DNA of 64,000 nt, from the IMG/VR virus record IMGVR_UViG_3300026076_000002. One strand, given 5' to 3'. The notes under the pieces are model-generated. The model worked only from the letters and a program-made list of their open reading frames with translations. It was not told where the DNA came from and made no database searches. The translations under genes and the position numbers were made by a program. This DNA is from a virus. Within the stretch, counting starts at the first letter, position 1. Every line of letters starts with the position of its first letter. Shown piece after piece: positions 35,041 through 56,339 of this stretch.

Positions 35041-35067
35041 TTCATATATACTAGGAGGTAAAAACCA

Positions 35068-35463: not shown

Positions 35464-35466
35464 ATC

Positions 35467-38070: not shown

Positions 38071-39208
38071 AGGGATTGTTCCATGATGTAGGGATAGTAC
38101 CGAATACTTTTTTATAGTGATCGTATATCGGAATGAAGTTTGGCATTACCTTATCAACAGTAGTTTGTTCAAGTGTTTCAAGATCACTTGTCCATTGGTC
38201 TCTTAGTTCTTTATACTGTGGTGCATTGTTACCTAGATCAGGGACGTAACAGTTCCTATGCAGATTTGTGATAGGAAATTCAAGAAACTTAGATAGTTCT
38301 TTGAGTGGTCTGGACAGTCTGGGATTCCATAGTTCTTCCATTATAACATGATGGACGTTCTTTTCACCAAAATACTGTACAAACTTAAGGAAGTTCTCAG
38401 CATACTTACCTACACCAAACTGACATATCTTATATGTATTGACCATTGTTATGAAATAATCATTGTGACCTTTACCCTTAGTGGACATGGTGTTATGCTT
38501 ATTCCATATTGTTACAAACTCTGGAATATCAGGTGTAGGACATTCTGGCAATATTATAGTAGAACCCAGTTCAGAGAATAACCTTCTAATAGGATCTCTA
38601 AATTCTATCAATACTTTTACATTAAAGTGTTCTCTTAATTGAGGTGCGATTCTTGCATAGAATTCTGCTGGTAGATTCATGTTGAAATTACTGAAGTCAG
38701 CAACAGCATGATAACCAGCATCCTTAATGAAATCCCAATGCCTAGTATAGTAATCAATATACTTCTCTAAGGTCATAGGATACTCAAATAACTTTTTAAG
38801 GTACTTGCTAGTATAGTGGTAAGTCTTATCAGTATACTCTATCTGAGTTTGGTAATTACTCCATTCTCTAGTATCAGTACAAAGAATACCATAAGGATTA
38901 TCATGCCATTCAGGATAGATCCCATTAGTGAGTATGTTATTATCGTATTGTCTATGCCTGTACCAGTCTCCAGATCCACGTATTCCAAAACCCCAATAGC
39001 ACACGTGTTCACCACAATGCTTACCTAGATTTTGAGTTTTGAACCAGTCACGTTCTACTGTATGCTGATAATGACATTGTGACAACCACAGTGGTTCCTT
39101 CCTATGACCTGTATGACAATATCTATTGTCACGCTGTAAGGTTAACCACATGGGTGTAGTCGCTGCCCATCCACACCCAGTATTAAGTAGTAGTGTTGGT
39201 TTATCCAT
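38063..39208 (-). CDS. Sulfotransferase-like P-loop protein with a variant 5'-PSB motif
   Basis: GCGWAATTP, KEP, ADFSN, FRDPIRRLFS; paralogue of 56340-57332. Confidence 0.65.
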   Translation of the reverse strand: MDKPTLLLNTGCGWAATTPMWLTLQRDNRYCHTGHRKEPLWLSQCHYQHTVERDWFKTQNLGKHCGEHVCYWGFGIRGSGDWYRHRQYDNNILTNGIYPEWHDNPYGILCTDTREWSNYQTQIEYTDKTYHYTSKYLKKLFEYPMTLEKYIDYYTRHWDFIKDAGYHAVADFSNFNMNLPAEFYARIAPQLREHFNVKVLIEFRDPIRRLFSELGSTIILPECPTPDIPEFVTIWNKHNTMSTKGKGHNDYFITMVNTYKICQFGVGKYAENFLKFVQYFGEKNVHHVIMEELWNPRLSRPLKELSKFLEFPITNLHRNCYVPDLGNNAPQYKELRDQWTSDLETLEQTTVDKVMPNFIPIYDHYKKVFGTIPTSWNNPYV

Positions 39209-39270
39209 CAACTAACATAACCTATATTATGTATGGTATACTACATAACATTAGTTATGTTAGTTTGGAT
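39203..39270. repeat. Long imperfect inverted repeat at a divergent gene junction
   Basis: AACTAACATAAC (39210-21) pairs with GTTATGTTAGTT (39254-65); inner TTATGTA/TACATAA; outer ATCCA/TGGAT. Confidence 0.85.
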
Positions 39271-39496
39271 GACCACATTGCCATCACTTAATGATTTATA
39301 CATGGGAGATACAGTAAGAACTACACAGGGTGATGTAGGAACAGTAGCATTTATAAGTGAGTCATACTTTACTATCCTCGTAACTAGAGGTCATCATAGA
39401 TCAAGAGATGTACATTTGCTTGTACATTGGGACAGTGCATATACTGTCACACATACTGTAGAAAACCTTTCTGATGATGATATTATAGTATCATAA
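39269..39496 (+). CDS. Small hypothetical SH3-like protein (start reassigned from 39233)
   Basis: GDTVRTTQGDVGTVAFI; C-terminus runs through the next promoter. Confidence 0.5.
   Translation: MTTLPSLNDLYMGDTVRTTQGDVGTVAFISESYFTILVTRGHHRSRDVHLLVHWDSAYTVTHTVENLSDDDIIVS
39431..39486 (+). promoter_or_regulatory. Phage early-promoter motif, copy 1
   Basis: GACAGT-N6-ACTGTCAC, 30 nt, TATTAT. Confidence 0.75.
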
Positions 39497-39510
39497 ACAA
39501 GGAAAGAAAC

Positions 39511-41712
39511 ATGACAGTCAACATTGAGATTAAAGGAAACCTTGCTAGACTACTAGCAACTGAGGATCTAATGGTTGAGCATAAGAATGTAGAGACTGCT
39601 TCATTTAATGTAGAGTCTCGTATTCTAACACTACCACAGTGGAAGACTGCAAGTGAGTTTGTGTATGATATGCTAGTGTCACATGAAGTAGGACATGCAC
39701 TATTCACACCATGTAGAGACTGGAATAAAGAGGATGCTTATACTCAAGTACCTATGGACTATGTAAATGTAGTTGAGGATGCAAGAATTGAGAGAATGAT
39801 GAAAGAGAAGTTTGCTGGTCTTAATAGAGACTTCTTTAATGCTTACAAGGAACTACAAGATGATAACTTCTTTGAAGTAGAATTATCTGAGTTACCAACA
39901 TATACTCTTATTGATAGAATCAACCTATACTTTAAAGTTGGTCTATACTTACCAATACCATTCAATGATGATGAGTCAGAGTTTGTAACTAGAGCATCTA
40001 AGACTGAGACTTTTGATGATGTACTTGAACTATCAAGAGATATATATGAGTATGCTAAACAGCAACAGGAAACTCAAAAGCAACAAGCAACTGCTGATCC
40101 TGAAGGTCAGGATGATGTAGAGAATACTGATGGACAATCAACTGATACATCAACTGATGCACAATCTGAAGGTAGCAGTAACAATAAGACTGAGCAAGAG
40201 GAAGGTGGAGAAGATGATGATGAAATGACTGCTGGTAAGTCAGGTGGAAATAGTATTGAGGAGTCAAGAACTCAAAGAGCATTTGATAGAAATAGTGACT
40301 CTATGATTGATAGATCAGATAGTAGAGAGACCACTTATGTTAGCATACCAGACTGCAACTTAGATAAGATAGTAATACCAGTTGATGTTGTTAAAAAGTA
40401 TCTTGATGAGCATTGGAATGATATTAGAAATGATGAGTCAACTTATGATGAAGCACACCACGAGCATAAGAGAAGATATTATGAAAACTATTGCCCATTC
40501 ATGGATGCTGAGAAACAGTATACAGAGTATAAGAGATCAGCAATGAAGGAAGTTAACTACCTTGTAAAGGAGTTTGAGATGAAGAAATCTGCTAATGCTT
40601 ATGCGAGGACTGCAACTGCTAAGACTGGAGTAATTGATACATCTAAATTGCACACTTATATGTACAATGAGGATATATTTAAGAAGATCAATGTAGTTGC
40701 TGATGGCAAGAATCATGGTCTAATATTTGTACTAGACTGGAGTGGTTCAATGTCAAACATACTACATGATAGTATGAAGCAACTATTCAACTTAGTATGG
40801 TTTTGTAAGAAAGTAAACATACCATTTGAAGTATATGCTTTCAGCAATGACGCATGGTCAATAGGTATGGATGCTGAAGATTATGATAAGAGTAAGTATG
40901 CTTACAGGTATGATGATGGACTTAAACGTCAGGATCTAGTTAACAACATTAAACTTAATGATCTTTCTATTGAAGCAGCATTTCGCATGGTGACAGTATT
41001 AGACAATACATTGAACAATAGAGATCTTGATGCACAAATGAAGAATCTATGGTTGACTTCACAATCATTTAGAAATGGTGCATACCAGCATCCACATAGA
41101 TTCCACTTATCAGGTACACCACTAAATGAAGCAATTATATCTCTTAAGAGTATAACTAAGAGATTCATTGCTGAGAATCAAGTACAGAAGTCTCACATTG
41201 TTATCTTTACTGATGGAGAAGGTTATGATGCTTCATACAATAGAAAGTCTACCTATGATGATTCAATCATGGCAACTTCAGTACCATACGATAGTGCTAT
41301 TAGAGCAAATGGTAGAACATTCCATGTACTATCTAATAGATGTGACTTCACCAATAAATTGATTGAAGCAGTAAAGTCAACACTACCAGATACATCCTTC
41401 ATTGGATTTAGGGTACTTGCTACTGGAGATACTAGATCATTTACACATTACTATGCAAGGAACTTGACTGTTGAGTACATTAAAGGTGAGATCAGAAAGA
41501 AAGGATGTGTATGTGTTAAGGATCCTAAAGGTATGGATCTAATGTTTGGTCTACCTCAAAAGAATCTTAATCTTGATACAGACTTAGATGATACAATGCC
41601 AGAAAAGGATAACATCACTAAGAGCGATATATCAAGAGCATTTAGAAAGACTTTTAAAAATAAGAAGTCTAATAAAATAGTATGTCAGACTTTCATAAGT
41701 CAAATAGCATGA
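39511..41712 (+). CDS. Metallopeptidase-like (HExxH) plus VWA domain protein, CobT-like partner of the AAA ATPase
   Basis: HEVGH, NVVEDARIE, acidic linker, MIDAS DWSGSM, GTPLNEA, TDGE. Confidence 0.88.
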   Translation: MTVNIEIKGNLARLLATEDLMVEHKNVETASFNVESRILTLPQWKTASEFVYDMLVSHEVGHALFTPCRDWNKEDAYTQVPMDYVNVVEDARIERMMKEKFAGLNRDFFNAYKELQDDNFFEVELSELPTYTLIDRINLYFKVGLYLPIPFNDDESEFVTRASKTETFDDVLELSRDIYEYAKQQQETQKQQATADPEGQDDVENTDGQSTDTSTDAQSEGSSNNKTEQEEGGEDDDEMTAGKSGGNSIEESRTQRAFDRNSDSMIDRSDSRETTYVSIPDCNLDKIVIPVDVVKKYLDEHWNDIRNDESTYDEAHHEHKRRYYENYCPFMDAEKQYTEYKRSAMKEVNYLVKEFEMKKSANAYARTATAKTGVIDTSKLHTYMYNEDIFKKINVVADGKNHGLIFVLDWSGSMSNILHDSMKQLFNLVWFCKKVNIPFEVYAFSNDAWSIGMDAEDYDKSKYAYRYDDGLKRQDLVNNIKLNDLSIEAAFRMVTVLDNTLNNRDLDAQMKNLWLTSQSFRNGAYQHPHRFHLSGTPLNEAIISLKSITKRFIAENQVQKSHIVIFTDGEGYDASYNRKSTYDDSIMATSVPYDSAIRANGRTFHVLSNRCDFTNKLIEAVKSTLPDTSFIGFRVLATGDTRSFTHYYARNLTVEYIKGEIRKKGCVCVKDPKGMDLMFGLPQKNLNLDTDLDDTMPEKDNITKSDISRAFRKTFKNKKSNKIVCQTFISQIA

Positions 41713-41846
41713 CTACTCCCAACTGGCAACATAACTCAGGTAAGGATGCTAAACGCATCCTTAAACCTAGAGCATTAAAATCTGCCAAGCAACGGTTACA
41801 GGCACTTAAGAGACAGTTGCTAAACCGACCACCAAACAACTCATAA
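41709..41846 (+). CDS. Small basic protein (45 aa, not in the ORF track)
   Basis: MTTPNWQHNSGKDAKRILKPRALKSAKQRL...; ATGA overlap. Confidence 0.6.
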   Translation: MTTPNWQHNSGKDAKRILKPRALKSAKQRLQALKRQLLNRPPNNS

Positions 41847-41867
41847 TACCATAACAGGTATTATAAT
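41812..41867 (+). promoter_or_regulatory. Phage early-promoter motif, copy 2
   Basis: GACAGTT-N4-AACCGACCAC, 29 nt, TATAAT. Confidence 0.65.
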
Positions 41868-41892
41868 AAGTACATAACAAACAAAGAGGATT

Positions 41893-43023
41893 ATGCCACG
41901 CACTATTGACTTTACACCACACTTCGATTCTATCATCAATAAGTATGGAGTCGAATTGGATGCCGATATGATTAAAGAGTACGTTGCTTTGAATCCTGAT
42001 GTATCATACCAGACTGTCACCAAGTATCTTAATGATTTTAAGATCAAGCGTGGCAAGTGGGTAATAAACAAAAATCAAAAGGAACAGCAACCAGTAGTTC
42101 AAACTATTGCTCAACCAGTACCAACAAATACTGATAGGTCACTTAAGAAGACTACCATTGATGTAGAGAATCTTGTACCTGATAAGGATAAAACATTTGT
42201 TCCTTTTGGTGGATTTAGTGACCTAAAGAAAGTAATAGCATCAAGACAGTTCTATCCTACTTTCATTACTGGTATGAGTGGTAATGGTAAGACTTTTGGA
42301 GTAGAACAGGCATGTGCCCATTTAGGTAGAGAACTTATCAGAGTCAACATCACAGTTGAGACTGATGAGGACGATTTGATCGGTGGATTTAGACTGGTCA
42401 ATGGTGAGACCGTATGGCATAATGGACCAGTTATTGAAGCACTTGAAAGAGGATGTGTATTATTACTTGATGAGATTGATTTAGCATCAAATAAAATACT
42501 ATGCTTACAATCTATTCTTGAAGGCAAAGGAGTATTCCTTAAAAAGATAGGTGAGTATGTTAAACCTACTGCTGGATTCACAGTTGTTGCTACTGCCAAC
42601 ACTAAAGGTAAAGGTAGTGATGATGGAAGGTTTATTGGCACTAATGTATTGAATGAAGCGTTCCTTGAGCGATTCCCTATTACATTTGAGCAAGCATATC
42701 CTACTCCAAAAACTGAGAACAGGATACTTAGAGCATTATGTGAACAACTCAACATACCTATGATAGGTGAGCATGAGGACTTCATTGTACATCTATGCTC
42801 ATGGGCAGAGATAGTCAGGAAGACTTTTGCTGAAGGTGGAGTTGATGAGATTATCTCAACTAGGAGACTTACTCACATTATGAAAGCATACTCCATTTTT
42901 GGAGATAAAATGAAAGCAGTTGATCTATGCTTGAATAGATTTGATGATGAGACCAAAGAGTCTTTCAGACAACTCTATACTAAGTTAGACCCTACTGTTA
43001 CTATCACTCCAGAATCGGAGTGA
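41893..43023 (+). CDS. cobS: CobS-like MoxR-family AAA+ ATPase
   Basis: Walker A GMSGNGKT, ETDEDDLIGG, Walker B LLLDEID, ATANTKG, NEAFLERF, STRRL. Confidence 0.92.
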   Translation: MPRTIDFTPHFDSIINKYGVELDADMIKEYVALNPDVSYQTVTKYLNDFKIKRGKWVINKNQKEQQPVVQTIAQPVPTNTDRSLKKTTIDVENLVPDKDKTFVPFGGFSDLKKVIASRQFYPTFITGMSGNGKTFGVEQACAHLGRELIRVNITVETDEDDLIGGFRLVNGETVWHNGPVIEALERGCVLLLDEIDLASNKILCLQSILEGKGVFLKKIGEYVKPTAGFTVVATANTKGKGSDDGRFIGTNVLNEAFLERFPITFEQAYPTPKTENRILRALCEQLNIPMIGEHEDFIVHLCSWAEIVRKTFAEGGVDEIISTRRLTHIMKAYSIFGDKMKAVDLCLNRFDDETKESFRQLYTKLDPTVTITPESE

Positions 43024-43058
43024 TATACATATAATGTACTTCATTCTCCCAGTTTACC

Positions 43059-43187
43059 ATGAACCCTTACCTACTTGCATTTGAACCGACTGAGTGGTAC
43101 AATGAGGAGTATGAGAACTGGGATGAGGATGATTATAGAGATCAAACAGATCACTATGAGGCATTATCGGTCAAATTCTATTCATAA
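43059..43187 (+). CDS. Small acidic hypothetical protein (42 aa)
   Basis: MNPYLLAFEPTEWYNEEYENWDEDDY... Confidence 0.45.
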   Translation: MNPYLLAFEPTEWYNEEYENWDEDDYRDQTDHYEALSVKFYS

Positions 43188-43208
43188 GCAATGCTTATCA
43201 TTAGATAC

Positions 43209-43237
43209 TTGACAAGCACTTCAATCCATAGTATACT
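43209..43237 (+). promoter_or_regulatory. Sigma70-type promoter
   Basis: TTGACA-17 nt-TATACT. Confidence 0.85.
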
Positions 43238-43243
43238 TTGTAT

Positions 43244-43500
43244 ATGAATCGGGGTTGAGCAACTAGGAGAGCATCACTGCCGATCCCTGAGAACTGAGTT
43301 AGTACCTAACCTTGTAGTTAGGTGAAGCACCACTTGACCAGTTCAGACATCTCGGAGTGTAAACTGTCCGTCTTATGACGTTGCTTGTAAAACACTTTCC
43401 CTTCTTTGTTATGTCCACGTATGACTCAAAACTGCTAGGGTGTACCGCCTCAAACTATTACCTACATTAGTTAGAGGCATTATTCTATATCATGCTAAAT
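43244..43500 (+). ncRNA. Putative structured non-coding RNA or long leader
   Basis: About 255 nt, higher GC, no credible ORF; stems ATCGG/CCGAT, GAACTG/CAGTTC enclosing ACCTAAC/GTTAGGT, and GCCTC-AACTA/TAGTT-GAGGC. Confidence 0.55.
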
Positions 43501-43501
43501 C

Positions 43502-43717
43502 ATGCAAATCTCTGGTTCATCCGCTATCACATCCGTATCATTTGGTGACAACAACAGCGTTGCTGTTAAGTACACTACTAACGATAAGGAGTATGGATTT
43601 ACAGCGAAAGATCAGAATGTGATTAAGGCAGGTCTTGAGACCACCATTTCAAAAGGTGAGTCTGTTGGTCGTCTTATTGCTGGTTACCGTAGAAACGGTC
43701 AACTACAAGCAGTTTGA
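43502..43717 (+). CDS. KTSC-domain-like small protein
   Basis: SSAITSVSF..VAVKY....Y.F....GESVGRLI matches the KTSC pattern. Confidence 0.6.
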   Translation: MQISGSSAITSVSFGDNNSVAVKYTTNDKEYGFTAKDQNVIKAGLETTISKGESVGRLIAGYRRNGQLQAV

Positions 43718-43759
43718 TCTTTAAATACAACTGAATACTTTTATTAATTAATTTAATAT

Positions 43760-43790
43760 AACCCCTATTGAGTAGGGGTTTTATTGTTTT
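43760..43790 (+). terminator. Rho-independent terminator
   Basis: AACCCCTA-TTGAG-TAGGGGTT followed by a T-rich tail. Confidence 0.85.
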
Positions 43791-43810
43791 TACACTAAGG
43801 AGTTTTTAAA

Positions 43811-44404
43811 ATGTCATGTGACAATCATTTGGATTATAACACAGTCTGGGAGGCAATGAACTCTTTAGATGAGGAGATAAGAAACTTTCAACAAGCGATT
43901 GAAATGTCAAACGATTTGTTGACTGAGGCAAGGGAACATGGTAATGAGTCTATCATAAAGACTGCTGAATTACTACAACGATATGTTGACTGGCAATGGC
44001 ATAGGTTAGAGTCAGTTGGTGTTACAGCATGGAATGAGACAGTTGTTAAGTTGAAAGACTCAGAAGAACCACTTGTTATCAACACAGGACTAGGTACTGA
44101 GTCAGCAACATATAATGTTGATCCAACATCATTTATTACTGATGATGATTATACATTGAACATTCCTGAAGATATGACAGTCAGTTTAAATACTGATGCT
44201 GAGATTCCAGGAATTGACATAAGTGATCTAGGTTATGCTGGTCTCACTCCTGAGAGTATATCATTAGATACTGATGATATTATAACAACTGGTATTCATA
44301 CTGACTACTTAAATGATGCAGCGTATGGACTAGGTGAGGATAAACAACAAGCAGATGAGTTATGGGATGCAGTTGGGTTTAATCCTGATGAGGAGGTCAA
44401 ATGA
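43811..44404 (+). CDS. Acidic hypothetical protein
   Basis: AAGGAG RBS; helical N-half, low-complexity acidic C-half. Confidence 0.65.
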   Translation: MSCDNHLDYNTVWEAMNSLDEEIRNFQQAIEMSNDLLTEAREHGNESIIKTAELLQRYVDWQWHRLESVGVTAWNETVVKLKDSEEPLVINTGLGTESATYNVDPTSFITDDDYTLNIPEDMTVSLNTDAEIPGIDISDLGYAGLTPESISLDTDDIITTGIHTDYLNDAAYGLGEDKQQADELWDAVGFNPDEEVK

Positions 44405-44613
44405 AACTTGAAATAGATGAAAACGATAGAGAACTATTGTTTGAATCATTATGTCATTATGATATGCACAATGAGTTAAACTCAAAAGAGAATGATTCAT
44501 TCCATTATCTCTATGGTGAACTTTCACCTTCATTCACACCTGATGAAATAAAACAGAATAAGGAAGTGGCAGCAAGGGTAAGGGCAACAGTTCCACCAGA
44601 GACATATACATAA
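44401..44613 (+). CDS. Small hypothetical protein
   Basis: GGAGG RBS; ATGA overlap. Confidence 0.65.
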   Translation: MKLEIDENDRELLFESLCHYDMHNELNSKENDSFHYLYGELSPSFTPDEIKQNKEVAARVRATVPPETYT

Positions 44614-44656
44614 TTGTCACAAGCACCCTTAACAGGGTGCTTTTTTATGTTATAAT
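44601..44656 (+). promoter_or_regulatory. Phage early-promoter motif, copy 3, fused with a terminator hairpin
   Basis: GACA..TTGTCAC, AAGCACCCT-TAAC-AGGGTGCTTTTTT, TATAAT 30 nt after the motif. Confidence 0.8.
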
Positions 44657-44662
44657 ACTATT

Positions 44663-45484
44663 ATGGAAAGACAAGATCGCTTCACTAATTTAATCAAGCA
44701 CTCATTTGGTGGACAACGTGAGGAGATATTGATGTGTCTTGAGAATGATGAAGGATACAAGTTTGATAGTGCTAAGTTTGGTGAGCGAGTAGCATTTATA
44801 ACTGAGGATACTAAAGGTGTTGCATCCAATGGTGGATGTGCATTTGATTGTAAGGATGGAACTGAAGCAAAAGCATTGTTTCTAGGTCAAACATATATGT
44901 GTCCTGTTTGTTCGTCTAAAAATAATTATTATTCGTCTAAATGTACTAGGTGTGGGTCTACTGAAAGAATTGATCCCAATGATACAAGATGGGGAATAGA
45001 CTGTGAAGCACACGTCAAATATTATGGTCAGATACCAAACTACATCTTCAGTCACATTCAACCATTAAATAGAGATCTTGATGAATTAAAATTTAGACTA
45101 AGAGTTTTTCGTGTATCTGCATCTGAACCGTATTTCACTTCGTGTTTAGAGTATCAACATAAGCATGGGTCTAAACCACATAAAAATTTCATGCCATTTG
45201 GCAGAGATTTCTATATGTCATCACCTAGTAGATTGATAGATTGTACTATTACTGTTTATCAATCAAATGTAAATGTTGAGTATGAATATTATAACCTAGA
45301 CAACAAATTAAAATGCTTAAATATTCCTATTTCAAAGTTTACCAAAAAAGAGTTAAAACAATTAACAGTCAAAAATGGAAAAGTTAGTGTTAATGAAGCA
45401 GTAAATGTCTTAGGAGTGAAGAAATCAACCCATGGTAAATTACGTGGACAACTTAACAGAAACAAAAACCATGTTCAACTTTGA
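44663..45484 (+). CDS. Putative type II restriction endonuclease, MamI-like (PD-(D/E)xK with Zn ribbon)
   Basis: GE..., FDCKDGTEAK catalytic pattern followed by CPVC..CTRC and DTRW; adjacent to a DNA methyltransferase. Confidence 0.65.
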   Translation: MERQDRFTNLIKHSFGGQREEILMCLENDEGYKFDSAKFGERVAFITEDTKGVASNGGCAFDCKDGTEAKALFLGQTYMCPVCSSKNNYYSSKCTRCGSTERIDPNDTRWGIDCEAHVKYYGQIPNYIFSHIQPLNRDLDELKFRLRVFRVSASEPYFTSCLEYQHKHGSKPHKNFMPFGRDFYMSSPSRLIDCTITVYQSNVNVEYEYYNLDNKLKCLNIPISKFTKKELKQLTVKNGKVSVNEAVNVLGVKKSTHGKLRGQLNRNKNHVQL

Positions 45485-46424
45485 ATTAACATATAAGAAC
45501 CAAGATTGTCTTGAATTCTTATCAACAATAGAAGAAGGATCTATTGACTTAGTGTTAACTGATCCACCATATTACAGGGTAGTTAATGATAGTTGGGATA
45601 ATCAATGGTTTACATCTAACGAGTATTACAGTTGGTGTAAACAATGGATTGAAGAATTAAGCAGAATATGTAAATATAGTGCTTCATTTTGGTTGTTTGG
45701 TTATCCTCAACAACTAGCACATTTACTGCCAGTAATTATAAAGAATGGGTGGACATTTAGGCAACAGATAGTAATAGATAAGGGCATAAGATCTGTTGCT
45801 GGTAGAACATCTAAGAATCTTAAAATGTATCCAACTGCGACTGAATCTATCTACTATTTTCATTATGAAAGCAGAGATATTATCAGGAGTTATTTACAAT
45901 CAGAAAGACAAAGATTAGGTCTTAATGGTAAACAATGCAACGAAATACTAGGAAAAGCAACAACTGGAGGAGGCACTTTTGCATGTATCGCAAGCGAGAA
46001 GAAACCACTTGAACATAGAACTTATCCTACTAGAATTGACTGGACTAAGTTACAATCAGTAATGAACTTACCAGACTATGATGATCTAGTTTACAAGTTT
46101 AATTTACAATCAGGTCTAACAGATGTGTGGACTGATATAAACTTTTATCATAAAGATAAGAAGATACATAGTACACAAAAACCCTTAAGTTTGATGCAAA
46201 GAATAATAGAAACTTCGTCAAATAAGGGTGATAAAGTGTTAGATATGTTTGCTGGTAGTGGTTCAACTGCGGTTGCATGTAAAGGTCTTAATAGACATTT
46301 TACAGGTTGCGAAGTTGATAAAAAGTATTATAAAGACTCACTTGAAAGAATAAACAATTCGTGTGTAGGTTATTTAACTGGCACATCCGATAGTGATAAT
46401 CCATTACTGTCTGCTATAATATAA
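45471..46424 (+). CDS. Beta-class N6-A/N4-C DNA methyltransferase (start probably 45471)
   Basis: DLVLTDPPY, HSTQKP, VLDMFAGSGST, GCEVD. Confidence 0.92.
   Translation: MFNFELTYKNQDCLEFLSTIEEGSIDLVLTDPPYYRVVNDSWDNQWFTSNEYYSWCKQWIEELSRICKYSASFWLFGYPQQLAHLLPVIIKNGWTFRQQIVIDKGIRSVAGRTSKNLKMYPTATESIYYFHYESRDIIRSYLQSERQRLGLNGKQCNEILGKATTGGGTFACIASEKKPLEHRTYPTRIDWTKLQSVMNLPDYDDLVYKFNLQSGLTDVWTDINFYHKDKKIHSTQKPLSLMQRIIETSSNKGDKVLDMFAGSGSTAVACKGLNRHFTGCEVDKKYYKDSLERINNSCVGYLTGTSDSDNPLLSAII
46376..46420 (+). promoter_or_regulatory. Phage early-promoter motif, copy 4
   Basis: AACTGGCAC, 30 nt, TATAAT. Confidence 0.7.
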
Positions 46425-46759
46425 ACATACAACGGGTTAAAACCATGGACATGCCTAGTATTATGCTAGAAACTGAACATCACATGATGGAAATTGAGTC
46501 ACAGTTGTATGTAACAATCAAACGATATTGTCAAGAAAAGAATATTACTCTTGACTATTTTATGTTTGAATTTATGAACTTTGACCCTGAATCAGGTGAT
46601 GGAAATGTTATTTAACAAGCATGAATGTGATTTAATTGTTTACTGTCTTGAGCAACAATCTATTGATTTCAATGAGATTGAAGAGCAAGATATGACATCA
46701 ATTCTTCACAAATTACGTCAACAATCCCAACCAATTACTAACAACAACCGAGGTTAATT

Positions 46760-46972
46760 ATGTCCAACGGATTATTAAACAGTTACACATTTGAAGCAAA
46801 GAAAATTGTATATTATTCTGTAACTGTTGGTGCTAATACTAAAACTGAAGCACGAAAAATTGCATCTAATTTTGAACATTGCCAACATTATGAGGAGGTT
46901 GAGTATATTGAAGGTGATGATTATAAGGTAGGTAAAATGTTAGAAACAACTGATGAAAAGTGGTTAACATGA
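46760..46972 (+). CDS. Hypothetical early protein
   Basis: GAGG RBS. Confidence 0.6.
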   Translation: MSNGLLNSYTFEAKKIVYYSVTVGANTKTEARKIASNFEHCQHYEEVEYIEGDDYKVGKMLETTDEKWLT

Positions 46973-47108
46973 GACAATTTACTGTAAGTGCCATTGTTGA
47001 AGGTTATAGAATTGATGAACAATTTACTGCTGTAAGTATTCATCATGCTATCAAATTAATGAAGGCAAAGTATTCATCTGCACGAAATGTATTCGTAAGA
47101 AACTAACA

Positions 47109-47366
47109 ATGAAACAACTAACTTCCCCACAATGGGATGAACTAATCGACCAGTATGTTCAACTACAAATTGATAGTATGGATCACAAAGATATGTACCA
47201 ATTTGTATACAATCAACTCGTACATGAGTTAGGTGAGATAGAATCAAGACAAGAATTATGTGATGATATTAAATACTCATTTGATGAAGATACATTGAAT
47301 GAGTTAATAGATAACGTCACTAATCCTACTGTATTAGATGTTAACCAGACTGGAGGTAAGTATTAA
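47109..47366 (+). CDS. Hypothetical early protein (paralogue of 51869-52132)
   Basis: Shared V.LQID.MD motif. Confidence 0.65.
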   Translation: MKQLTSPQWDELIDQYVQLQIDSMDHKDMYQFVYNQLVHELGEIESRQELCDDIKYSFDEDTLNELIDNVTNPTVLDVNQTGGKY

Positions 47367-47632
47367 TGAGTAGACCAATTATCACCAATATCTACAAACG
47401 TAGAACTGCATTTAGTGATGAATTGTTATCAATCATTGCCGACTATCCTGACCAACAAATTGTTATCATTGATGAGTTATTATCTAAATTAAATCATATT
47501 CAATTAGATGAATTAGAGGATCTAATTGTTAACAACTATGATAGCGAAGAAGATGATAATATTACAAATGATGTTGTGACAGATGATAAACTGTCTACTT
47601 TTCATTGCAAAAGAGACTTAGATAGTTTATAG
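47366..47632 (+). CDS. Hypothetical early protein
   Basis: GGAGG RBS; TAATG coupling. Confidence 0.6.
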   Translation: MSRPIITNIYKRRTAFSDELLSIIADYPDQQIVIIDELLSKLNHIQLDELEDLIVNNYDSEEDDNITNDVVTDDKLSTFHCKRDLDSL

Positions 47633-47633
47633 T
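47576..47633 (+). promoter_or_regulatory. Phage early-promoter motif, copy 5
   Basis: GTGACAG-N6-AACTGTCTAC, 29 nt, TATAGT. Confidence 0.7.
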
Positions 47634-47662
47634 ATAAGAGTCAAACAAATACTATCATTTTT

Positions 47663-47995
47663 ATGCCTGTTAGTTCTACTTCCACAGTATCAACAACTGC
47701 CAAAAAGAGAACAAGGAAAGTAACAACAACTCCAAAGAAGTCTGTTACTAAAGTAAAAAGAACTCCTCGCAAGTCTACTTCAAAAGTAACAACTAAGAAG
47801 TTAAAAAGACCAGCGAAAACAGTATTGACTTTAAATCATTATGTTCGTGACTATCAATCAAGAGTCAAGATTCATAACTATGAAGTACAACAATTCATGG
47901 AAGATTTAAAGGTTGGTTATACATTAGCAAGCAAATTGTCCTCACAGTTTGTTAATTATGCCAAGGAGTCATACAAAACACACTTCAACGTGTAA
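47663..47995 (+). CDS. Lys/Thr/Arg-rich basic early protein
   Basis: AKKRTRKVTTTPKKSVTKVKRTPRKSTSK N-terminus. Confidence 0.65.
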   Translation: MPVSSTSTVSTTAKKRTRKVTTTPKKSVTKVKRTPRKSTSKVTTKKLKRPAKTVLTLNHYVRDYQSRVKIHNYEVQQFMEDLKVGYTLASKLSSQFVNYAKESYKTHFNV

Positions 47996-48049
47996 CACTT
48001 CTCAAACTGTCACAAGCACCCTACACAGGGTGCTTTTTTAGTGTATAAT
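47991..48049 (+). promoter_or_regulatory. Phage early-promoter motif, copy 6, fused with a terminator hairpin
   Basis: AACTGTCAC, AAGCACCCT-ACAC-AGGGTGCTTTTTT, TATAAT 30 nt after the motif; near-identical to copy 3. Confidence 0.8.
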
Positions 48050-48077
48050 AATAGTATAAACAAATTAAGGTTACTAA

Positions 48078-48341
48078 ATGAAACTTTATTCCAAGAATCT
48101 TGATACAGTTATTGACTATTACCCTGTAAAGAATGTAGCAACTGGGTTAATACTTGATGACTACATTTTAAAGGTAACAAGTGATAACGAGTTTACAACA
48201 ATGAAGCAGAATTATATTACTAAAGGTGAAATGTTGCATGAGATTAATATAAGATTAAGCATGTCTAATTTAGGTTACAAAGTAATAGGTAACAACGAGA
48301 ATTTACCTCAGTTAGGTAATCCATTTAGAGACCTAGGTTAA
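48078..48341 (+). CDS. Hypothetical early protein (paralogue of 51119-51376)
   Basis: Shared IDYYP and N..LPQ motifs. Confidence 0.65.
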   Translation: MKLYSKNLDTVIDYYPVKNVATGLILDDYILKVTSDNEFTTMKQNYITKGEMLHEINIRLSMSNLGYKVIGNNENLPQLGNPFRDLG

Positions 48342-48578
48342 TGGTATTATTATTATTTTGGTCTTACAATCTATTCGCACTAAGTGTATTCATTTATTTA
48401 AAAGTTACGGAGGTTAAGTAACAATGTCAACCCTACATCATGCGTCAATTCTTGAAAGTTTAGCAGAGACAATCTATGATGAGATTGTATTAGTTAACTT
48501 TAGTGAATTGTCCCCTAGTGAAGAAGATTTAGTGTATGAAATTGCATGTACTAAAGCACAACAATCATTTGAGGATTT

Positions 48579-48785
48579 ATGCCAGTAATTAACAACAAAG
48601 AAGTGCAATTAGCATGGGGTAATTGTTATCCTGATGATGAAATATCATTAGATTATAATGATTATGAAGTGCTAATTGACCTCGTGTTTGATGTTATCAA
48701 ACAAGACTACATTAATGATGAAAAATGTAGATTAAACAGCAAATTACTAGGTAAACTATTAATTTTAGCGAACAAAGATGACTAA
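48579..48785 (+). CDS. Hypothetical early protein
   Basis: GAGG RBS. Confidence 0.55.
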   Translation: MPVINNKEVQLAWGNCYPDDEISLDYNDYEVLIDLVFDVIKQDYINDEKCRLNSKLLGKLLILANKDD

Positions 48786-48916
48786 ACAAACTATTATCCA
48801 ACTCGCAGATTGTGTCAACTATGTTATACGAAATGATGACAAGTTAACCGCTTGCGATATACTTAACCTAATCAAGATTAGGTCTGATTTATTGTTAACT
48901 TATGAGGACAAATTAA

Positions 48917-49120
48917 ATGCTTAATAGTGATAAGTTTGGCATGACATTCTGGTTTGATGATGACAATTACCTCATGTATTGTCCTACACAAACTAACAAC
49001 TTCCCAGACTTTAATTGTGCTGGTTATGTACATGAATGGGATGATTTTAGCAATGTTAATTTCAAAGATCTCTTTGATATTATCAGTAAGTTAGTATTAC
49101 TTAAGGAGATGGATTTATGA
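48917..49120 (+). CDS. Hypothetical early protein
   Basis: GAGG RBS. Confidence 0.6.
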   Translation: MLNSDKFGMTFWFDDDNYLMYCPTQTNNFPDFNCAGYVHEWDDFSNVNFKDLFDIISKLVLLKEMDL

Positions 49121-49347
49121 ACTATTATTCACCTAAAGACATAGGAATTGGTGACAAAGTATTATATAAGGGCAGCGAATATGATGTCCTTATTAATTAC
49201 ATAAAGGGAGAAACTGATGCAAAAGGTTATACTCCTAAAATGAATCGTACTGTCTTAATTGATAGTTTAGATCAAAAGATTACCTGTCTTGATTATAAAG
49301 AACTTCAGGTAATTGAACAAATAACTTATCATGGGAGACTAATTTAA
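49117..49347 (+). CDS. Hypothetical early protein (SH3-like)
   Basis: AAGGAG RBS; IGIGDKVLYKG. Confidence 0.6.
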   Translation: MNYYSPKDIGIGDKVLYKGSEYDVLINYIKGETDAKGYTPKMNRTVLIDSLDQKITCLDYKELQVIEQITYHGRLI

Positions 49348-49585
49348 CAATGGTAATGAACAACAACCTAGCACAATTCTTGTCAGAATGTTGTAAATCA
49401 AATGAACAACTTACTGACCTTATATGTACAAATTATGTTGAACGCTTAAATGATAGCGAACAGAACGATTTAACAACAGTTCTTTATACAAACTACAACC
49501 ATTTTAAGGAGACTATTTAACATGTTTATTCTTCCAATTACCATTGCTTCATTGTTAGTAATAGCATACATATTGTATGTACTAA

Positions 49586-49855
49586 TTGTCAACAATCCAC
49601 ACCATGAGTAAGTATGATATACCAGACAAATATGACATTCATTTGGTACTCAAACCCAATGAAATTAGAGAACTAAAGCAAGTATTTAAGACTGCATTTA
49701 GAATACATGATGACATTGATTCTATGCCTAACTTGTTAGATAAGTGGCAAAAGTTGTTCACTAAAATAACACTTCAGCATGATAATTATGTCAAAGAAAA
49801 TTACAATGGAACTGGTAAGATTGTAAGCGAAGATCAAACATTAGGCAGTGGTTAA
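49586..49855 (+). CDS. Hypothetical early protein (start probably the internal ATG, MSKYD)
   Basis: ORF track. Confidence 0.5.
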   Translation: MSTIHTMSKYDIPDKYDIHLVLKPNEIRELKQVFKTAFRIHDDIDSMPNLLDKWQKLFTKITLQHDNYVKENYNGTGKIVSEDQTLGSG

Positions 49856-49888
49856 CTAACAACAACTCAACTCAATCCCCTAATCAAA

Positions 49889-50110
49889 ATGAGAACAATT
49901 AACAGACAATTACACTATGCAATGTGTAACTTACTAAAGGAATTAGCGACACTAAATCCTACATTGCATGAATATTGGACGTGTGAATTGTATAAATCAA
50001 ATGGTGATATTAATGAGGAAGAGTGGATAGAATTGAACTACAATGACCTCTATGAGGATGTAAACAATGCACAACGATTACAACAACAAAATGTCAACAA
50101 AGCAAACTAA
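49889..50110 (+). CDS. Hypothetical early protein
   Basis: ORF track. Confidence 0.55.
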   Translation: MRTINRQLHYAMCNLLKELATLNPTLHEYWTCELYKSNGDINEEEWIELNYNDLYEDVNNAQRLQQQNVNKAN

Positions 50111-50194
50111 ATCGTCATCTAAGAGTGATAAGAAAGAAGTGGTAATCGTGCCACAAAATATAATAAAATGGAGGACGCTAAAAAACTATTGATC

Positions 50195-50253
50195 GTGTAC
50201 CAGTTGGGAAAGTGTCCACTATTACCCCACAATACCCTAGAATCGGTTATTAT
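50195..50253 (+). promoter_or_regulatory. Phage early-promoter motif, copy 7
   Basis: GTGTACCAGTT-N4-AAGTGTCCAC, 28 nt, TATTAT. Confidence 0.75.
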
Positions 50254-50308
50254 AAGTATATCGGGGAGGGAAACCAAACCGAGAGTCCTTAAACCAATTA
50301 GATTCTAC

Positions 50309-50539
50309 ATGAAACTAACTCCAATAGCAGCAAACCAAACTGAGTTAACACTAAACAACGGTACACAAGTTTTCTTCAGTTATAAAACCCCAGTTGCCGC
50401 TTATGACTCCGTTTCTGGCAAGTTTTTAAGAACTTCTTACAAATGGTCAGTAACAACTAGCAGACATATTAACAAGTGGTTAGATACAAGAATTGCTGAG
50501 AATGTTGACCAAAGTGTATTAGATTCACTGGTCAATTAG
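50309..50539 (+). CDS. Small phage protein (start reassigned from 50168)
   Basis: MKLTPIAANQTEL..VFFSYKTPVAA..WSVTTSRHINKWL; the upstream part of the track ORF is promoter sequence. Confidence 0.7.
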   Translation: MKLTPIAANQTELTLNNGTQVFFSYKTPVAAYDSVSGKFLRTSYKWSVTTSRHINKWLDTRIAENVDQSVLDSLVN

Positions 50540-50558
50540 TATTCTTGACTAACAACTG

Positions 50559-50585
50559 AATACCCCTAATCCTAGGGGTATTTTT
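50559..50585 (+). terminator. Rho-independent terminator
   Basis: AATACCCCTA-ATCC-TAGGGGTATT followed by TTT. Confidence 0.85.
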
Positions 50586-50811
50586 ATACCCAAAATTATT
50601 AATCCCTTCACTAAGTAACAATCAATGAAAACAGTTAAATTAACAGATATACAACACAATCTTCTCTTAGATGTTATATCAACGGTTGCAAGTTTGGATC
50701 TTGATAATAACTATGAGGGAACAGAATTTGATGGACAATTTAATACTTTATGGGATGCAGTTATAGCAGCAAACTAACATTTAAACCCACCCAATTACCC
50801 CACTAATTATT

Positions 50812-51114
50812 ATGACTTCCATGCCAAACTATCTCTACAAAAATGATATTAACCGAGAGATATTAGAGGATACATTGTTATCAGTTTGTATGAAAAATGA
50901 GGGTATCTTAGATATGTGCATTAACCACTTAGTTAATACACTAAGTGATAACGAGGTTGAAAGATGGGATGAGTTAGTATCAACTAACTTTTGGGATATT
51001 TACGAAGAAAAATGTGTCAAACGCCATGCTAATCCTGTGGCAATAGATCATAACAAACCAGTTGATATTGTACCTGAGTTTGATACACCTTTAGCAGAAC
51101 AATACGGAGGATAA
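50812..51114 (+). CDS. Hypothetical early protein
   Basis: ORF track; resembles 47366-47632. Confidence 0.6.
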   Translation: MTSMPNYLYKNDINREILEDTLLSVCMKNEGILDMCINHLVNTLSDNEVERWDELVSTNFWDIYEEKCVKRHANPVAIDHNKPVDIVPEFDTPLAEQYGG

Positions 51115-51118
51115 AGTA

Positions 51119-51376
51119 ATGCAAATTAAACCCACAATTACATCCCAATTATGTATAGATTACTACCCAATCTGTGACATAAATGGTACAGTTAACAAGG
51201 ATTACAAGAGAAGAGTAATAAGATTAAAAGGCAACATTATCAAAGATGTATTAATTAGCATCACAAAATACTCTTATCAGTTATTAGATTACACCGAGAA
51301 TCACAATTACGTTGTAACTAATCAAAACAGATTACCCCAGTATTATTCATTTAATGAGGACACAATCTATGCCTAA
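51119..51376 (+). CDS. Hypothetical early protein
   Basis: GGAGG RBS; IDYYP motif. Confidence 0.65.
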   Translation: MQIKPTITSQLCIDYYPICDINGTVNKDYKRRVIRLKGNIIKDVLISITKYSYQLLDYTENHNYVVTNQNRLPQYYSFNEDTIYA

Positions 51377-51542
51377 AGTATCAACAACTATGCAACCCCT
51401 AAGTAACACCGAGTATCAAGCATTACTCGACATTTATAACAACAATGTCCCTAATGATTTCTATGCCTACAATGATACTTATTATCAAATGTTTGGCAGC
51501 GAAGGTGTTAGTGGAGCAACTCTAATCTCCCGCTTTAATTAA
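51354..51542 (+). CDS. Hypothetical early protein
   Basis: ORF track; start probably the MPKV codon. Confidence 0.5.
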   Translation: MRTQSMPKVSTTMQPLSNTEYQALLDIYNNNVPNDFYAYNDTYYQMFGSEGVSGATLISRFN

Positions 51543-51868
51543 CAATGACTAGACAAACAATTACTGTTAATCAGTACGAACAATTACAAAAACAATTTAA
51601 CTTTCAAGATCAACAATATGGATCTGTTAATTGTTATCATTCTCCAAAGTATTACAACAACCCTTTATACTTTGATCCACTATCTTATGAGGTTATTTAA
51701 CAATGAAAGAACGACTAATTCTCGTGACTGATTGTAACATAAAGGATGCAATCGGTCTATGGTATACTAACAAGTATTCCACACTAATTGATAAGATAAG
51801 TAATACTTTTGACCAAGAGATTACACATCTTTCATTAACACATAACACACTACATTCTCTGACCAGTT

Positions 51869-52132
51869 ATGTATAACAATCTACCCCTAAATTCTGAACA
51901 GTTAGATACACTTAAGGATGATTTTGTTGCTCTACAAATTGATAACATGGATATGCAATGTTTGATTGAGTTAGCATCAGATTATCTCTACAATTCGTAT
52001 CATAGATTAACACAAACTGACATGAAAGAACGTATTGAATGTTTATACTCAGAGGAGACATATTTAGAAATGGTTGATAACATTTTATCAGACCAATCTG
52101 ACCAGTACAAACTAATCCCTACTCGCTACTAA
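51869..52132 (+). CDS. Hypothetical early protein
   Basis: VALQIDNMD motif. Confidence 0.65.
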   Translation: MYNNLPLNSEQLDTLKDDFVALQIDNMDMQCLIELASDYLYNSYHRLTQTDMKERIECLYSEETYLEMVDNILSDQSDQYKLIPTRY

Positions 52133-52697
52133 TTACAATGAACAAATTAACATTTTTATCATCACAATCTTCAGATGAAATGTATGAAGCGGATTTTGAA
52201 TATGACCCCACTAAGTATCACTTAGAGGAAGAACAGTTCTTATCAGATAGTGGTGGGATTACAGAACAAATTGATAGTGAAACAATGCAAATCTTAAGAC
52301 AATGGTGATAACAATGCGACTTAAATTAATGTTTAAATTAATATACTTAGTCTTTCTATTAAGTATGATAAGTATTAATTATGTGACGTAATAAGGTGTT
52401 CAGTTATTGTTACCTAAGACTGCACAATATCGTCAAAATGTCAACAACAAGTGTGCAAATCCTCGTGTATACTTATGGGGAGTAATTGCTGCCCCTTTAA
52501 AGACAATTAGTCCACAAACCAGTTACTAACAACAATTATGACAATCGAACAGGCATTTGAGTTACTTTGGGATGCACAATCTGGCACAGAATTGTTATAC
52601 AATCTCGACATAATTGTCGATGAACTTAACAATTAAGTGAGGTAAATTAGCAGTCCTTCGTTAACAACAACTGTGTAACACTAAGTATCACTCAGGC

Positions 52698-52726
52698 TTG
52701 ACAGTCTGGGTGAATAGTGTTATACT
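52698..52726 (+). promoter_or_regulatory. Sigma70-type promoter in the candidate origin region
   Basis: TTGACA-17 nt-TATACT. Confidence 0.75.
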
Positions 52727-52822
52727 TATGACAGTTAATTTGTGATCTTCGATGATATTTTGTGGCGGTGCGTATATTAAAAAAGTACCTTCTTTCTAAC
52801 CTACAAACGTTCCCAAACGACC

Positions 52823-52830
52823 TATAAATA
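52823..52830 (+). promoter_or_regulatory. T4 late promoter
   Basis: TATAAATA upstream of the radical SAM gene. Confidence 0.7.
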
Positions 52831-52863
52831 TTAAAAATCTTGAAAATTTTTTTGGTATAAAAA

Positions 52864-56316: not shown

Positions 56317-56339
56317 GAACATGACGAATCTTTTTTTAT

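What the first reader, a model, noticed from the sequence alone, without database searches (positions are those of the whole stretch)
44601..46424. Complete type II restriction-modification pair carried as an early cassette by a lytic phage
Seen: a PD-(D/E)xK/Zn-ribbon ORF overlaps a beta-class MTase, bounded exactly by promoter copies 3 and 4; the MTase C-terminus is encoded by copy 4. Established: cyanophage MTases are usually orphans, and MamI recognises GATNNNNATC. Such a site occurs in this window (5401-5410), so self-methylation would be required if the specificity is shared. Inference: a weapon against host or co-infecting phage DNA, or a selfish cassette. The MTase also has a helical, HTH-like insert (LQSERQRLGLNGKQCNEILG).
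Basis: partly seen in the sequence, partly recalled or inferred. Interest (0 to 1): 0.7.

Follow-up and report, generated by a model that had tools for sequence, protein, structure and literature searches.

The report
Cyanophage restriction-modification pair, inferred site GAN6TC
This T4-like marine cyanophage carries a real DNA-cutting enzyme with its protective methylase, and it and its relatives have stripped GA-N6-TC from their own genomes (to zero where the methylase is gone), so the enzyme probably cuts that site in host or rival-phage DNA.

Summary
ORF1 (44663-45484) is a PD-(D/E)xK nuclease with an inserted four-cysteine zinc ribbon. It overlaps a beta-class DPPY methyltransferase (45471-46424) by 14 nt. 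ORF1 misses Pfam RE_MamI itself, but its homologues at phmmer E 1e-27 to 1e-30 pass that family's cut-off.

New here is the site evidence. The window holds 33 GA-N6-TC against about 206 expected, and none between 34809 and 57166. The MamI site GATN4ATC (3 against 27) is only a subset of this. Two cultured Synechococcus phages, S-MbCM7 and S-H9-1, encode a 25-27% identical ORF1 homologue and no PF01555 methylase. Each has 0 GA-N6-TC in about 190 kb (826 and 922 expected).

Five cyanomyoviruses without the nuclease have normal counts, one of them on the same host strain as S-MbCM7. So does Prochlorococcus and Synechococcus DNA. All 22 close methylase orthologues with upstream sequence have this nuclease next to them. 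Nuclease-only genes keep the catalytic residues and show dN/dS of 0.08-0.15.

Best reading: an early-expressed Type II R-M system, specificity GA-N6-TC, aimed at host or rival-phage DNA. The phage protects itself by methylation plus site loss. No activity was measured. This scan noted analogous cases with other nucleases in other genomes.

The parts
44614..44660 (+). Composite hairpin terminator plus sigma-70-like promoter (PeSL-like). The TTAACA -35 sits in the loop and TG-n-TATAAT is the -10. The -10 ends 6 nt before the ORF1 ATG.
   Evidence: concept of PeSLs from PMC2839356 and PMC4122927
44663..45484 (+). Restriction endonuclease (273 aa): PD-(D/E)xK core (E41, D62, E68-x-K70), inserted Cys4 zinc ribbon (C80, C83, C94, C97), conserved basic C-terminal GKxRGxLxR tail. 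Extended RE_MamI family. Inferred site GA-N6-TC.
45471..46424 (+). Beta-class DNA methyltransferase (317 aa from ATG 45471; an upstream ATG at 45432 is also open). Carries DPPY (motif IV), a helical target-recognition block and FAGSGS (motif I). Probably m6A.
46377..46420 (+). Promoter-like element inside the methylase 3' end (ACTGGCAC box, about 28 nt, TGCTATAAT), without a hairpin. It would serve the next small ORF at 46445.
48007..48053 (+). Second copy of the hairpin-promoter module. It matches 44587-44664 at 74% over 78 nt, and the 45-bp core is near identical.
34809..57166 (.). A 22.4-kb tract with no GA-N6-TC at all (about 72 expected). It covers the early and auxiliary gene region, including the R-M pair. 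The 33 sites left in the window lie in the tail-fibre/baseplate module (1-34.8 kb) and in 57.2-64 kb.

Best explanation
The two genes form an orthodox Type II restriction-modification system carried by a lytic T4-like cyanomyovirus in a hyperplastic early region.

Shown:
- ORF1 is an intact PD-(D/E)xK nuclease of the extended RE_MamI lineage.
- ORF2 is an intact beta-class DPPY methyltransferase, overlapping ORF1 by 14 nt.
- The pair is conserved as a unit in uncultured marine phages.
- Genomes that carry the nuclease lack GA-N6-TC, and nothing else tested shows that pattern.

Inferred:
- The nuclease, probably as a homodimer, recognises the interrupted palindrome GA-N6-TC. By analogy with MamI (GATNN^NNATC) it probably cuts within the spacer.
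- The methylase puts m6A on the A of each half-site.
- The pair is transcribed early from the hairpin-promoter module.
- The enzyme cuts unmethylated host DNA, which has about one site per 270 bp, and the DNA of co-infecting phages. That would serve host shut-off, nucleotide supply or exclusion of rivals.

This phage is protected twice: by methylation, and by having lost about five in six sites (all of them across 22 kb around the cassette). In relatives the loss has gone to completion and the methylase is gone. That suggests a path from R-M acquisition, through site purge, to methylase loss.
For: Nuclease identity:
- The AlphaFold model has pLDDT 90.9.
- Eight of the top ten VIA-align matches are PD-(D/E)xK restriction or homing endonucleases or Holliday junction resolvases.
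- E41, D62, E68, K70 and the four cysteines are kept, including in the nuclease-only enzymes.

Methylase: PF01555 at 3.9e-40. The nearest solved relatives are the m6A enzymes M.MboIIA, M.RsrI, CcrM and DpnA.

Linkage:
- 5 of 19 nuclease-anchored loci have the orthologous methylase directly downstream.
- All 22 methylase-anchored loci at 63% identity or more that have upstream sequence carry a nuclease of this family directly upstream. It belongs to one of two clades that are only 25-30% identical to each other.

Site:
- The window has 33 GA-N6-TC against about 206, the second most depleted 2+gap+2 word there.
- S-MbCM7 has 0 against 826, its most depleted word. One-off variants are normal or slightly raised.
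- S-H9-1 has 0 against 922. Neither genome has a PF01555 gene.
- G004 has 0 against about 240.
- 13 further nuclease-only loci have 0 against 10-36.

Controls:
- P-SSM2, P-SSM7, Syn9, S-PM2 and P-SSM4 lack the nuclease and have normal counts.
- S-PM2 and S-MbCM7 are both recorded on Synechococcus WH7803.
- 54 loci with only distant methylases have counts close to their other-spacing expectation.
- Host-type DNA has one site per 263-276 bp.

Further support:
- Carriers with normal site counts always have the methylase (G002 506, G003 466, L014 28).
- Six of six GA-N6-TC in the S-WAM2 helicase region are destroyed by point changes in S-MbCM7.
- Nuclease-only genes show dN/dS of 0.08-0.15.
Against: - No enzymatic activity, cleavage position or methylation was measured.
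- The specificity rests wholly on comparative site counts.
- ORF1 itself does not reach any Pfam threshold. Structural Z-scores of 5-7.5 are in the range the tool warns can reflect only a common arrangement.
- The carriers are related, so there are few independent lineages: about three purged lineages and three or four unpurged ones.
- L013 is a nuclease-only locus with 10 sites, all at its two ends. This may be mosaicism or a mis-assembly.
- The window's own whole genome is not held, so the counts cover 64 kb only.
- Early expression is inferred from promoter-like sequence alone.
- Whether the target is host DNA, rival phages or both is not resolved.
Confidence: 0.75

Rival explanations
1. 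The loss of GA-N6-TC is driven by a host restriction system with that specificity. The phage cassette would then be a captured host R-M, or its methylase an anti-restriction device, and the nuclease would not be the cause of the purge.
For: Phages commonly avoid host restriction sites. This window also avoids AGCT, CCGG, GGCC, GCGC, ACTAGT and CTGCAG, which this pair cannot explain. Phage methylases are often solitary anti-restriction devices (PMC4176335).
Against: S-PM2 is recorded on the same host strain as S-MbCM7 (WH7803) and has normal counts. The other four control phages are also normal. The purge follows presence of the nuclease gene and is total exactly where no methylase exists. No close homologue of the nuclease turned up in one genome for each of about 185,000 prokaryote species, although that was a pattern-based scan.
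Confidence: 0.08
2. The pair has MamI's own specificity, GATNNNNATC. The wider GA-N6-TC depletion would have another cause.
For: Family relation to RE_MamI. GATN4ATC is strongly depleted, 3 against 27.
Against: Every inner-base combination is depleted, not only T...A. For example GAT-N5-TCT is 0 against 26, GAT-N4-TTC is 0 against 24 and AGA-N6-TCA is 1 against 27. In the two nuclease-only genomes all GA-N6-TC are gone, about 830-920 sites, roughly sixteen times more than GATN4ATC alone would account for.
Confidence: 0.05
3. The pair is a purely selfish, mobile cassette, shuffled between hairpin-promoter modules, that persists by addiction and gives the phage no offensive benefit.
For: It sits in a hyperplastic early region next to PeSL-like modules. 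It lies in different gene neighbourhoods in different phages. Other cyanomyoviruses hold unrelated R-M cassettes at a syntenic spot.
Against: In a lytic phage, post-segregational killing has no obvious setting. Nuclease-only descendants keep the gene under strong purifying selection (dN/dS 0.08-0.15) after rewriting about 800-900 sites genome-wide. That argues the nuclease itself is useful to the phage.
Confidence: 0.1
4. ORF1 is a modification-dependent (Type IIM/IV-like) nuclease, as some of its nearest structural matches are (DpnI; NhoI and Eco15I as I recall them), and it attacks methylated DNA.
For: DpnI is among the top structural matches, with NhoI and the Eco15I N-terminal domain.
Against: A methylase is always adjacent in carriers that keep normal site density. 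If the nuclease needed methylated sites, that arrangement would be suicidal. PvuII, an orthodox enzyme, matches equally well.
Confidence: 0.02

Closest known systems
MamI / BsaBI-type Type IIP restriction enzymes (Pfam PF09567 RE_MamI; site GATNN^NNATC, from established enzyme catalogues)
   Same: Homologous family by transitive search. The recognition site is an interrupted palindrome with GA...TC as the outer bases and the same 10-bp span.
   Different: ORF1 does not itself reach the Pfam threshold. The avoided site is GA-N6-TC, without the inner T and A. I know of no characterised prototype with that site (from memory, REBASE not consulted), and 31 papers containing the string showed no R-M usage among the 15 listed. 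The gene is carried by lytic phages, and no close homologue was found in cellular genomes.
Chlorovirus (PBCV-1 and relatives) virus-encoded R-M systems that degrade host DNA early in infection (established knowledge, not checked here)
   Same: A lytic virus carries a Type II nuclease plus its cognate methylase. Viral DNA is protected while host DNA is the presumed target.
   Different: Those viruses rely on methylation. Here the genome is also purged of sites, and in relatives the methylase has been dispensed with altogether.
PacI of Pseudomonas alcaligenes, a solitary restriction enzyme in a genome without its site (cited in PMC3488263)
   Same: Self-protection by absence of target sites instead of methylation.
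   Different: PacI's 8-bp AT-only site is rare by composition in a GC-rich genome. Here a site with four specified bases, expected about 830-920 times in 190 kb, has been removed by selection.
T4 EndoII/EndoIV host-DNA nucleases with hydroxymethyl-cytosine self-protection (established knowledge)
   Same: Early phage nucleases that distinguish host from phage DNA.
   Different: In T4 the distinction comes from a modified base. Here it would come from sequence (site absence) and N6-methyladenine.
PeSL promoter-terminator cassettes of T4-type phages (PMC2839356, PMC4122927)
   Same: A hairpin overlapping a sigma-70-like early promoter, lying in a variable region beside accessory ORFs.
   Different: PeSLs have not been described for cyanophages in the paper I searched. 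Only two near-identical copies lie nearby, and they bracket 44.6-48.0 kb, not the R-M pair alone.

Membership tests
Orthodox Type II R-M system | Separate nuclease and methyltransferase genes, adjacent | tested here: met
   14-nt overlap in the window. Adjacency holds in 22 of 22 orthologous loci that have upstream sequence.
Orthodox Type II R-M system | Nuclease with a catalytic PD-(D/E)xK (or other nuclease) site | tested here: met
   D62, E68 and K70 are invariant in 80 sequences and E41 is at least 90% conserved. They lie on the expected helix and strands of the model. The fold matches NhoI, PvuII, DpnI and others at Z 5-7.5.
Orthodox Type II R-M system | Nuclease and methylase act on the same short defined sequence | not testable with these tools
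   Indirect only. Carriers with the methylase tolerate GA-N6-TC, and carriers without it have none.
Orthodox Type II R-M system | Sequence-specific double-strand cleavage | not testable with these tools
   No biochemistry. Specificity GA-N6-TC is inferred from site avoidance.
Pfam PF09567 RE_MamI | Score above the 25-bit gathering cut-off | tested here: not met
   ORF1 gives no hit at E<=1, nor do six close homologues at E<=10. Homologues P0036 (32.4 bits) and P0039 (31 bits) pass and match ORF1 at E 6.5e-30 and 1.8e-27. ORF1 is therefore a divergent relative, not a member by the curated test.
Pfam PF09567 RE_MamI | Recognition of GATNNNNATC | tested here: inconclusive
   The avoided word is the superset GA-N6-TC. 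There is no biochemical test.
Beta-class N6-adenine/N4-cytosine DNA methyltransferase (PF01555) | Pfam score above cut-off, with motif IV (D/S-PPY) N-terminal to motif I (FxGxG) | tested here: met
   138.6 bits against 26.7. DPPY lies at residues 31-34 and F260-x-G262-S263-G264 near the C-terminus in the 317-aa numbering. D31, P32, P33, Y34, F260, G262 and S263 are invariant and G264 is at least 90% conserved.
Beta-class N6-adenine/N4-cytosine DNA methyltransferase (PF01555) | Product is m6A rather than m4C | not testable with these tools
   DPPY and the best solved relatives (M.MboIIA, M.RsrI, CcrM, DpnA) point to m6A. This was not measured.
PeSL mobile regulatory cassette | Stem-loop overlapping a sigma-70-like early promoter, repeated in a variable region | tested here: met
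   Met for 44614-44660 and 48007-48053. The element at 46377-46420 has no stem-loop.

The most novel reading that the evidence does not exclude
Marine cyanomyoviruses use restriction endonucleases as offensive weapons against host and rival-phage DNA. They tell self from non-self by sequence: after acquiring an R-M pair, the phage genome is progressively rewritten until the site is extinct (0 of about 830-920 expected in two cultured phages), and the methylase is then discarded. This family would define a new Type II specificity, GA-N6-TC. All stages of the path are visible in present-day genomes, and the window phage is an intermediate.
Probability: 0.6. Interest if true: 0.85.

Novelty: new variant of a known kind. 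Interest (0 to 1): 0.78.

Why it matters
- Complete R-M systems are rare in phages. One survey found nine in 831 genomes (PMC4176335), and solitary restriction enzymes are usually taken to be toxic or dead.
- Here a nuclease family that public records label 'hypothetical' or, wrongly, 'ribosomal protein L40E' is tied to a specific site by a very clean genomic signal.
- Lytic cyanophages appear to protect themselves by erasing that site from their genomes. This offers an explanation for how T4-like cyanophages, which lack hydroxymethyl-cytosine, could destroy host DNA while sparing their own.
- It predicts a new restriction specificity that could be tested in a week.
- It gives two cultured phage-host pairs in which to test it: S-MbCM7 on Synechococcus WH7803 and S-H9-1 on MW02.
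- It shows that some 'restriction-site avoidance' in phage genomes may reflect the phage's own nucleases, not host defence.

Tried and rejected
- Pfam, NCBIfam and PHROGs on ORF1 gave only zinc-ribbon noise.
- phmmer of ORF1 against PDB sequences gave nothing meaningful.
- Foldseek against PDB found nothing at E<=0.001. Only the wide VIA-align search gave the nuclease fold.
- In BFVD the only match was the S-MbCM7 homologue.
- The window's own assembly is not held. The nearest record, G001, is a 26-kb fragment that is 93-97% identical to the tail module only.
- A genome-contig scan with the phage-clade alignment found no cellular relative. Wider alignments (A2, A4) were too divergent to make search patterns.
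- The single-protein methylase scan of IMG/VR found nothing. The alignment-based scan worked.
- The 'distant methylase' 1.3-2.8 kb downstream in many nuclease-only loci was considered as a partner and rejected. It carries SPPY, is 26-28% identical where most of its length aligns (38-42% over a 57-67-residue C-terminal match in the other loci), and sits among unrelated genes.
- Paper searches found no R-M use of GANNNNNNTC among the 15 of 31 hits listed. They also surfaced no paper on phage nucleases with self-site purging.
Full report
**What is at the coordinates.** On the + strand, ORF1 runs 44663-45484 (273 aa). A second frame is open from 45432 to 46424. Orthologues of the second protein align from the ATG at 45471, so the two genes most likely overlap by 14 nt.

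Directly upstream (44614-44660) a 9-bp GC-rich hairpin with a T-run is fused to a sigma-70-like promoter, TTAACA-16-TATAAT with a TG extension. The -10 ends only 6 nt before the ORF1 ATG, so the message may be nearly leaderless.

The window is from a T4-like cyanomyovirus. Its nearest named relatives are Prochlorococcus phages P-SSM2, P-SSM5 and P-SSM7. Bases 1-35,000 encode baseplate and tail-fibre proteins, and 35,000-57,000 encode early and auxiliary genes such as the CobS-like ATPase.

**The methylase.** ORF2 matches PF01555 at 3.9e-40 and phrog_67. Its nearest solved relatives are the m6A enzymes M.MboIIA, M.RsrI, CcrM and DpnA. DPPY precedes FxGSG, which is the beta-class order.

The model has pLDDT 85. 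It shows a confident helical block at residues 135-195, between the two halves of the catalytic domain.

**The nuclease.** ORF1 has no family hit of its own. It has 31 close homologues (42-58% identical, plus a 99% identical copy), all from marine metagenomes, and 94 representatives at E<=0.001.
- Across 80 of these, D62, E68, K70, C80, C94, C97, R109 and N175 are invariant. E41 and C83 are nearly so.
- The AlphaFold model has pLDDT 90.9. It places D62 and E68-x-K70 on adjacent strands and E41 on the preceding helix, the canonical PD-(D/E)xK layout.
- The Cys4 ribbon is inserted after the ExK strand.
- Foldseek found nothing. The exhaustive VIA-align search put NhoI (Z 7.5), PvuII (6.5), the Eco15I N-domain (6.1), DpnI (6.0), entry 3ndh (5.6), Hjc, NaeI, I-Ssp6803I and RecU on top.
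- These Z-scores are moderate, but the list is almost purely PD-(D/E)xK nucleases.
- 25 of 80 family members hit Pfam RE_MamI. P0036 and P0039 match ORF1 at 6.5e-30 and 1.8e-27 and pass the curated cut-off.

**The site signal.** An unbiased scan then showed that this is a subset of a wider loss. GA-N6-TC occurs 33 times, while GA-Nk-TC at every other spacing from 0 to 18 occurs 184-240 times. All inner-base combinations are affected. There is no site at all between 34809 and 57166.

Genomes that carry homologues of ORF1 show the following:
- S-MbCM7 (NC_023587, 189 kb) has 0 sites against 826 expected. S-H9-1 (NC_070961, 192 kb) has 0 against 922. Neither genome has any PF01555 gene.
- In S-MbCM7, GA-N6-TC is the single most depleted 2+gap+2 word. 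Its one-base variants are normal or slightly raised, so all four bases matter.
- G004 (60 kb read) has 0 against about 240. Thirteen further nuclease-only IMG/VR loci have 0 against 10-36.
- Carriers with the methylase adjacent range from normal (G002 506; G003 466 against about 570; L014, L092, L106) to almost purged (L020/L021 with 1, L101 with 0, L098 with 2).

**Controls.**
- P-SSM2, P-SSM7, Syn9, S-PM2 and P-SSM4 have no homologue of ORF1. They hold 296-399 sites per 80 kb, like other spacings.
- S-PM2 and S-MbCM7 are both recorded on Synechococcus WH7803. This speaks against a host-driven purge.
- S-WAM2 and ACG-2014i are normal locally.
- 54 loci with only distant methylases and no nuclease have counts close to their other-spacing expectation.
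- Twelve Prochlorococcus and three Synechococcus-type loci have one site per 263-276 bp.
- In the helicase region, six of six GA-N6-TC in S-WAM2 are destroyed by one or two point changes in S-MbCM7.

**Linkage and evolution.** Anchoring on the methylase, every orthologue of 63% identity or more with upstream sequence (22 of 22) has a nuclease of this family immediately upstream. That nuclease is either the window type (51-54% identical) or the S-MbCM7 type (25-30% identical). The pair has therefore stayed together while the nuclease diverged greatly.

On the nuclease tree, the unpurged R-M loci and the window are basal. A clade of 16 loci is purged, and within it L020/L021 keep the methylase while the rest have lost it. 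The S-MbCM7/S-H9-1 clade is purged and has no methylase.

Nuclease-only enzymes keep every catalytic and zinc ligand and evolve at dN/dS 0.08-0.15. They are therefore working genes.

The simplest history is acquisition of the pair, then gradual loss of sites, then loss of the methylase. The window phage is an intermediate. Its remaining sites sit in the tail-fibre module and in a distal accessory block. These regions may exchange by recombination, so their sites may have been imported, but I did not test that.

**Mechanism and role.** The gene identities, linkage, site statistics and selection are shown. Inferred steps are recognition of GA-N6-TC, cleavage within the spacer as in MamI, m6A protection, early expression, and use against host or co-infecting phage DNA. 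With about one site per 270 bp, a 1.7-2.5 Mb host chromosome would carry some 6,000-9,000 targets.

**Rivals.**
- Host-driven avoidance is unlikely, given the same-host control and the tie to the nuclease gene.
- Strict MamI specificity is excluded by the inner-base data.
- A purely selfish cassette fits the PeSL-like setting and the varied neighbourhoods. It does not fit purifying selection on solitary nucleases after a genome-wide rewrite.
- A methyl-dependent enzyme is incompatible with an adjacent methylase in site-rich genomes.

**Known or new.**
- R-M systems in phages are rare but known (PMC4176335).
- Self-protection by site absence is known for PacI (PMC3488263).
- Other cyanomyoviruses carry annotated, unrelated R-M cassettes at a syntenic spot.
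- I found no paper on this family, on GA-N6-TC as a restriction site, or on phage nucleases with self-site purging.
- Earlier notes of this scan describe the same logic for other nucleases (TTAA, AATT, CATG, CTAG) in other cyanophages. Those are unchecked AI notes. I did not test them and they do not count as support.

**Verdict.** This is a genuine phage-borne Type II R-M pair of a divergent MamI lineage, with a strongly supported but untested specificity of GA-N6-TC, and an unusual mode of self-protection.

Noticed in passing
window 1-64000: Several other short palindromes are strongly depleted: ACTAGT 0 against 37, CTGCAG 1 against 33, AGCT 61 against 297, CCGG 0 against 75, GGCC 6 against 75, GCGC 0 against 34, TCGA 66 against 180, TTCGAA 0 against 17, GGTACC 0 against 14.5, ACCGGT 0 against 16, CCA-N5-TGG 1 against 21. 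This R-M pair cannot explain them. They may reflect host systems or other phage nucleases.
   Followed up: no
window 44651-44665: The -10 hexamer of the hairpin-promoter module ends 6 nt before the ORF1 ATG, so the nuclease may be translated from a leaderless or near-leaderless mRNA. The methylase start lies inside the nuclease's last codons. This could set the ratio or order of the two proteins.
   Followed up: no
L087 875-3849 (NC_027132 ACG-2014i gp045-gp047); L088 5868-7293 (NC_031935 S-WAM2 gp213-gp212): Other Synechococcus myoviruses carry different annotated nuclease/methylase cassettes at the spot syntenic with the S-MbCM7 nuclease, downstream of the helicase. This suggests a hot spot for R-M-type cargo.
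   Followed up: partly
P0003, P0007, P0008, P0028, P0248, P0252: JGI annotation names members of this nuclease family 'ribosomal protein L40E'. The error evidently comes from the inserted zinc ribbon, which also gives weak L40e hits.
   Followed up: yes
L013 1-622 and 6899-7522: This 8.5-kb IMG/VR contig has a nuclease, no cognate methylase, no GA-N6-TC in its central 6.2 kb, and 10 sites packed into its two ends. It may be a recombinant or a chimeric assembly.
   Followed up: partly
window 39431-50264: Seven promoter-like elements share an ACTGTCAC-type box about 28 nt before a TATAAT-type -10, without a TTGACA -35. The strict pattern occurs 5 times against 1.07 expected. This may be a phage-specific early or middle promoter class.
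   Followed up: partly
L004 5945-6907; L013 5969-7063; L015 3424-4386: Many nuclease-only loci hold an SPPY-type (probably N4-cytosine) beta-class methylase 1.1-1.2 kb downstream. It is unrelated to the GA-N6-TC partner.
   Followed up: partly
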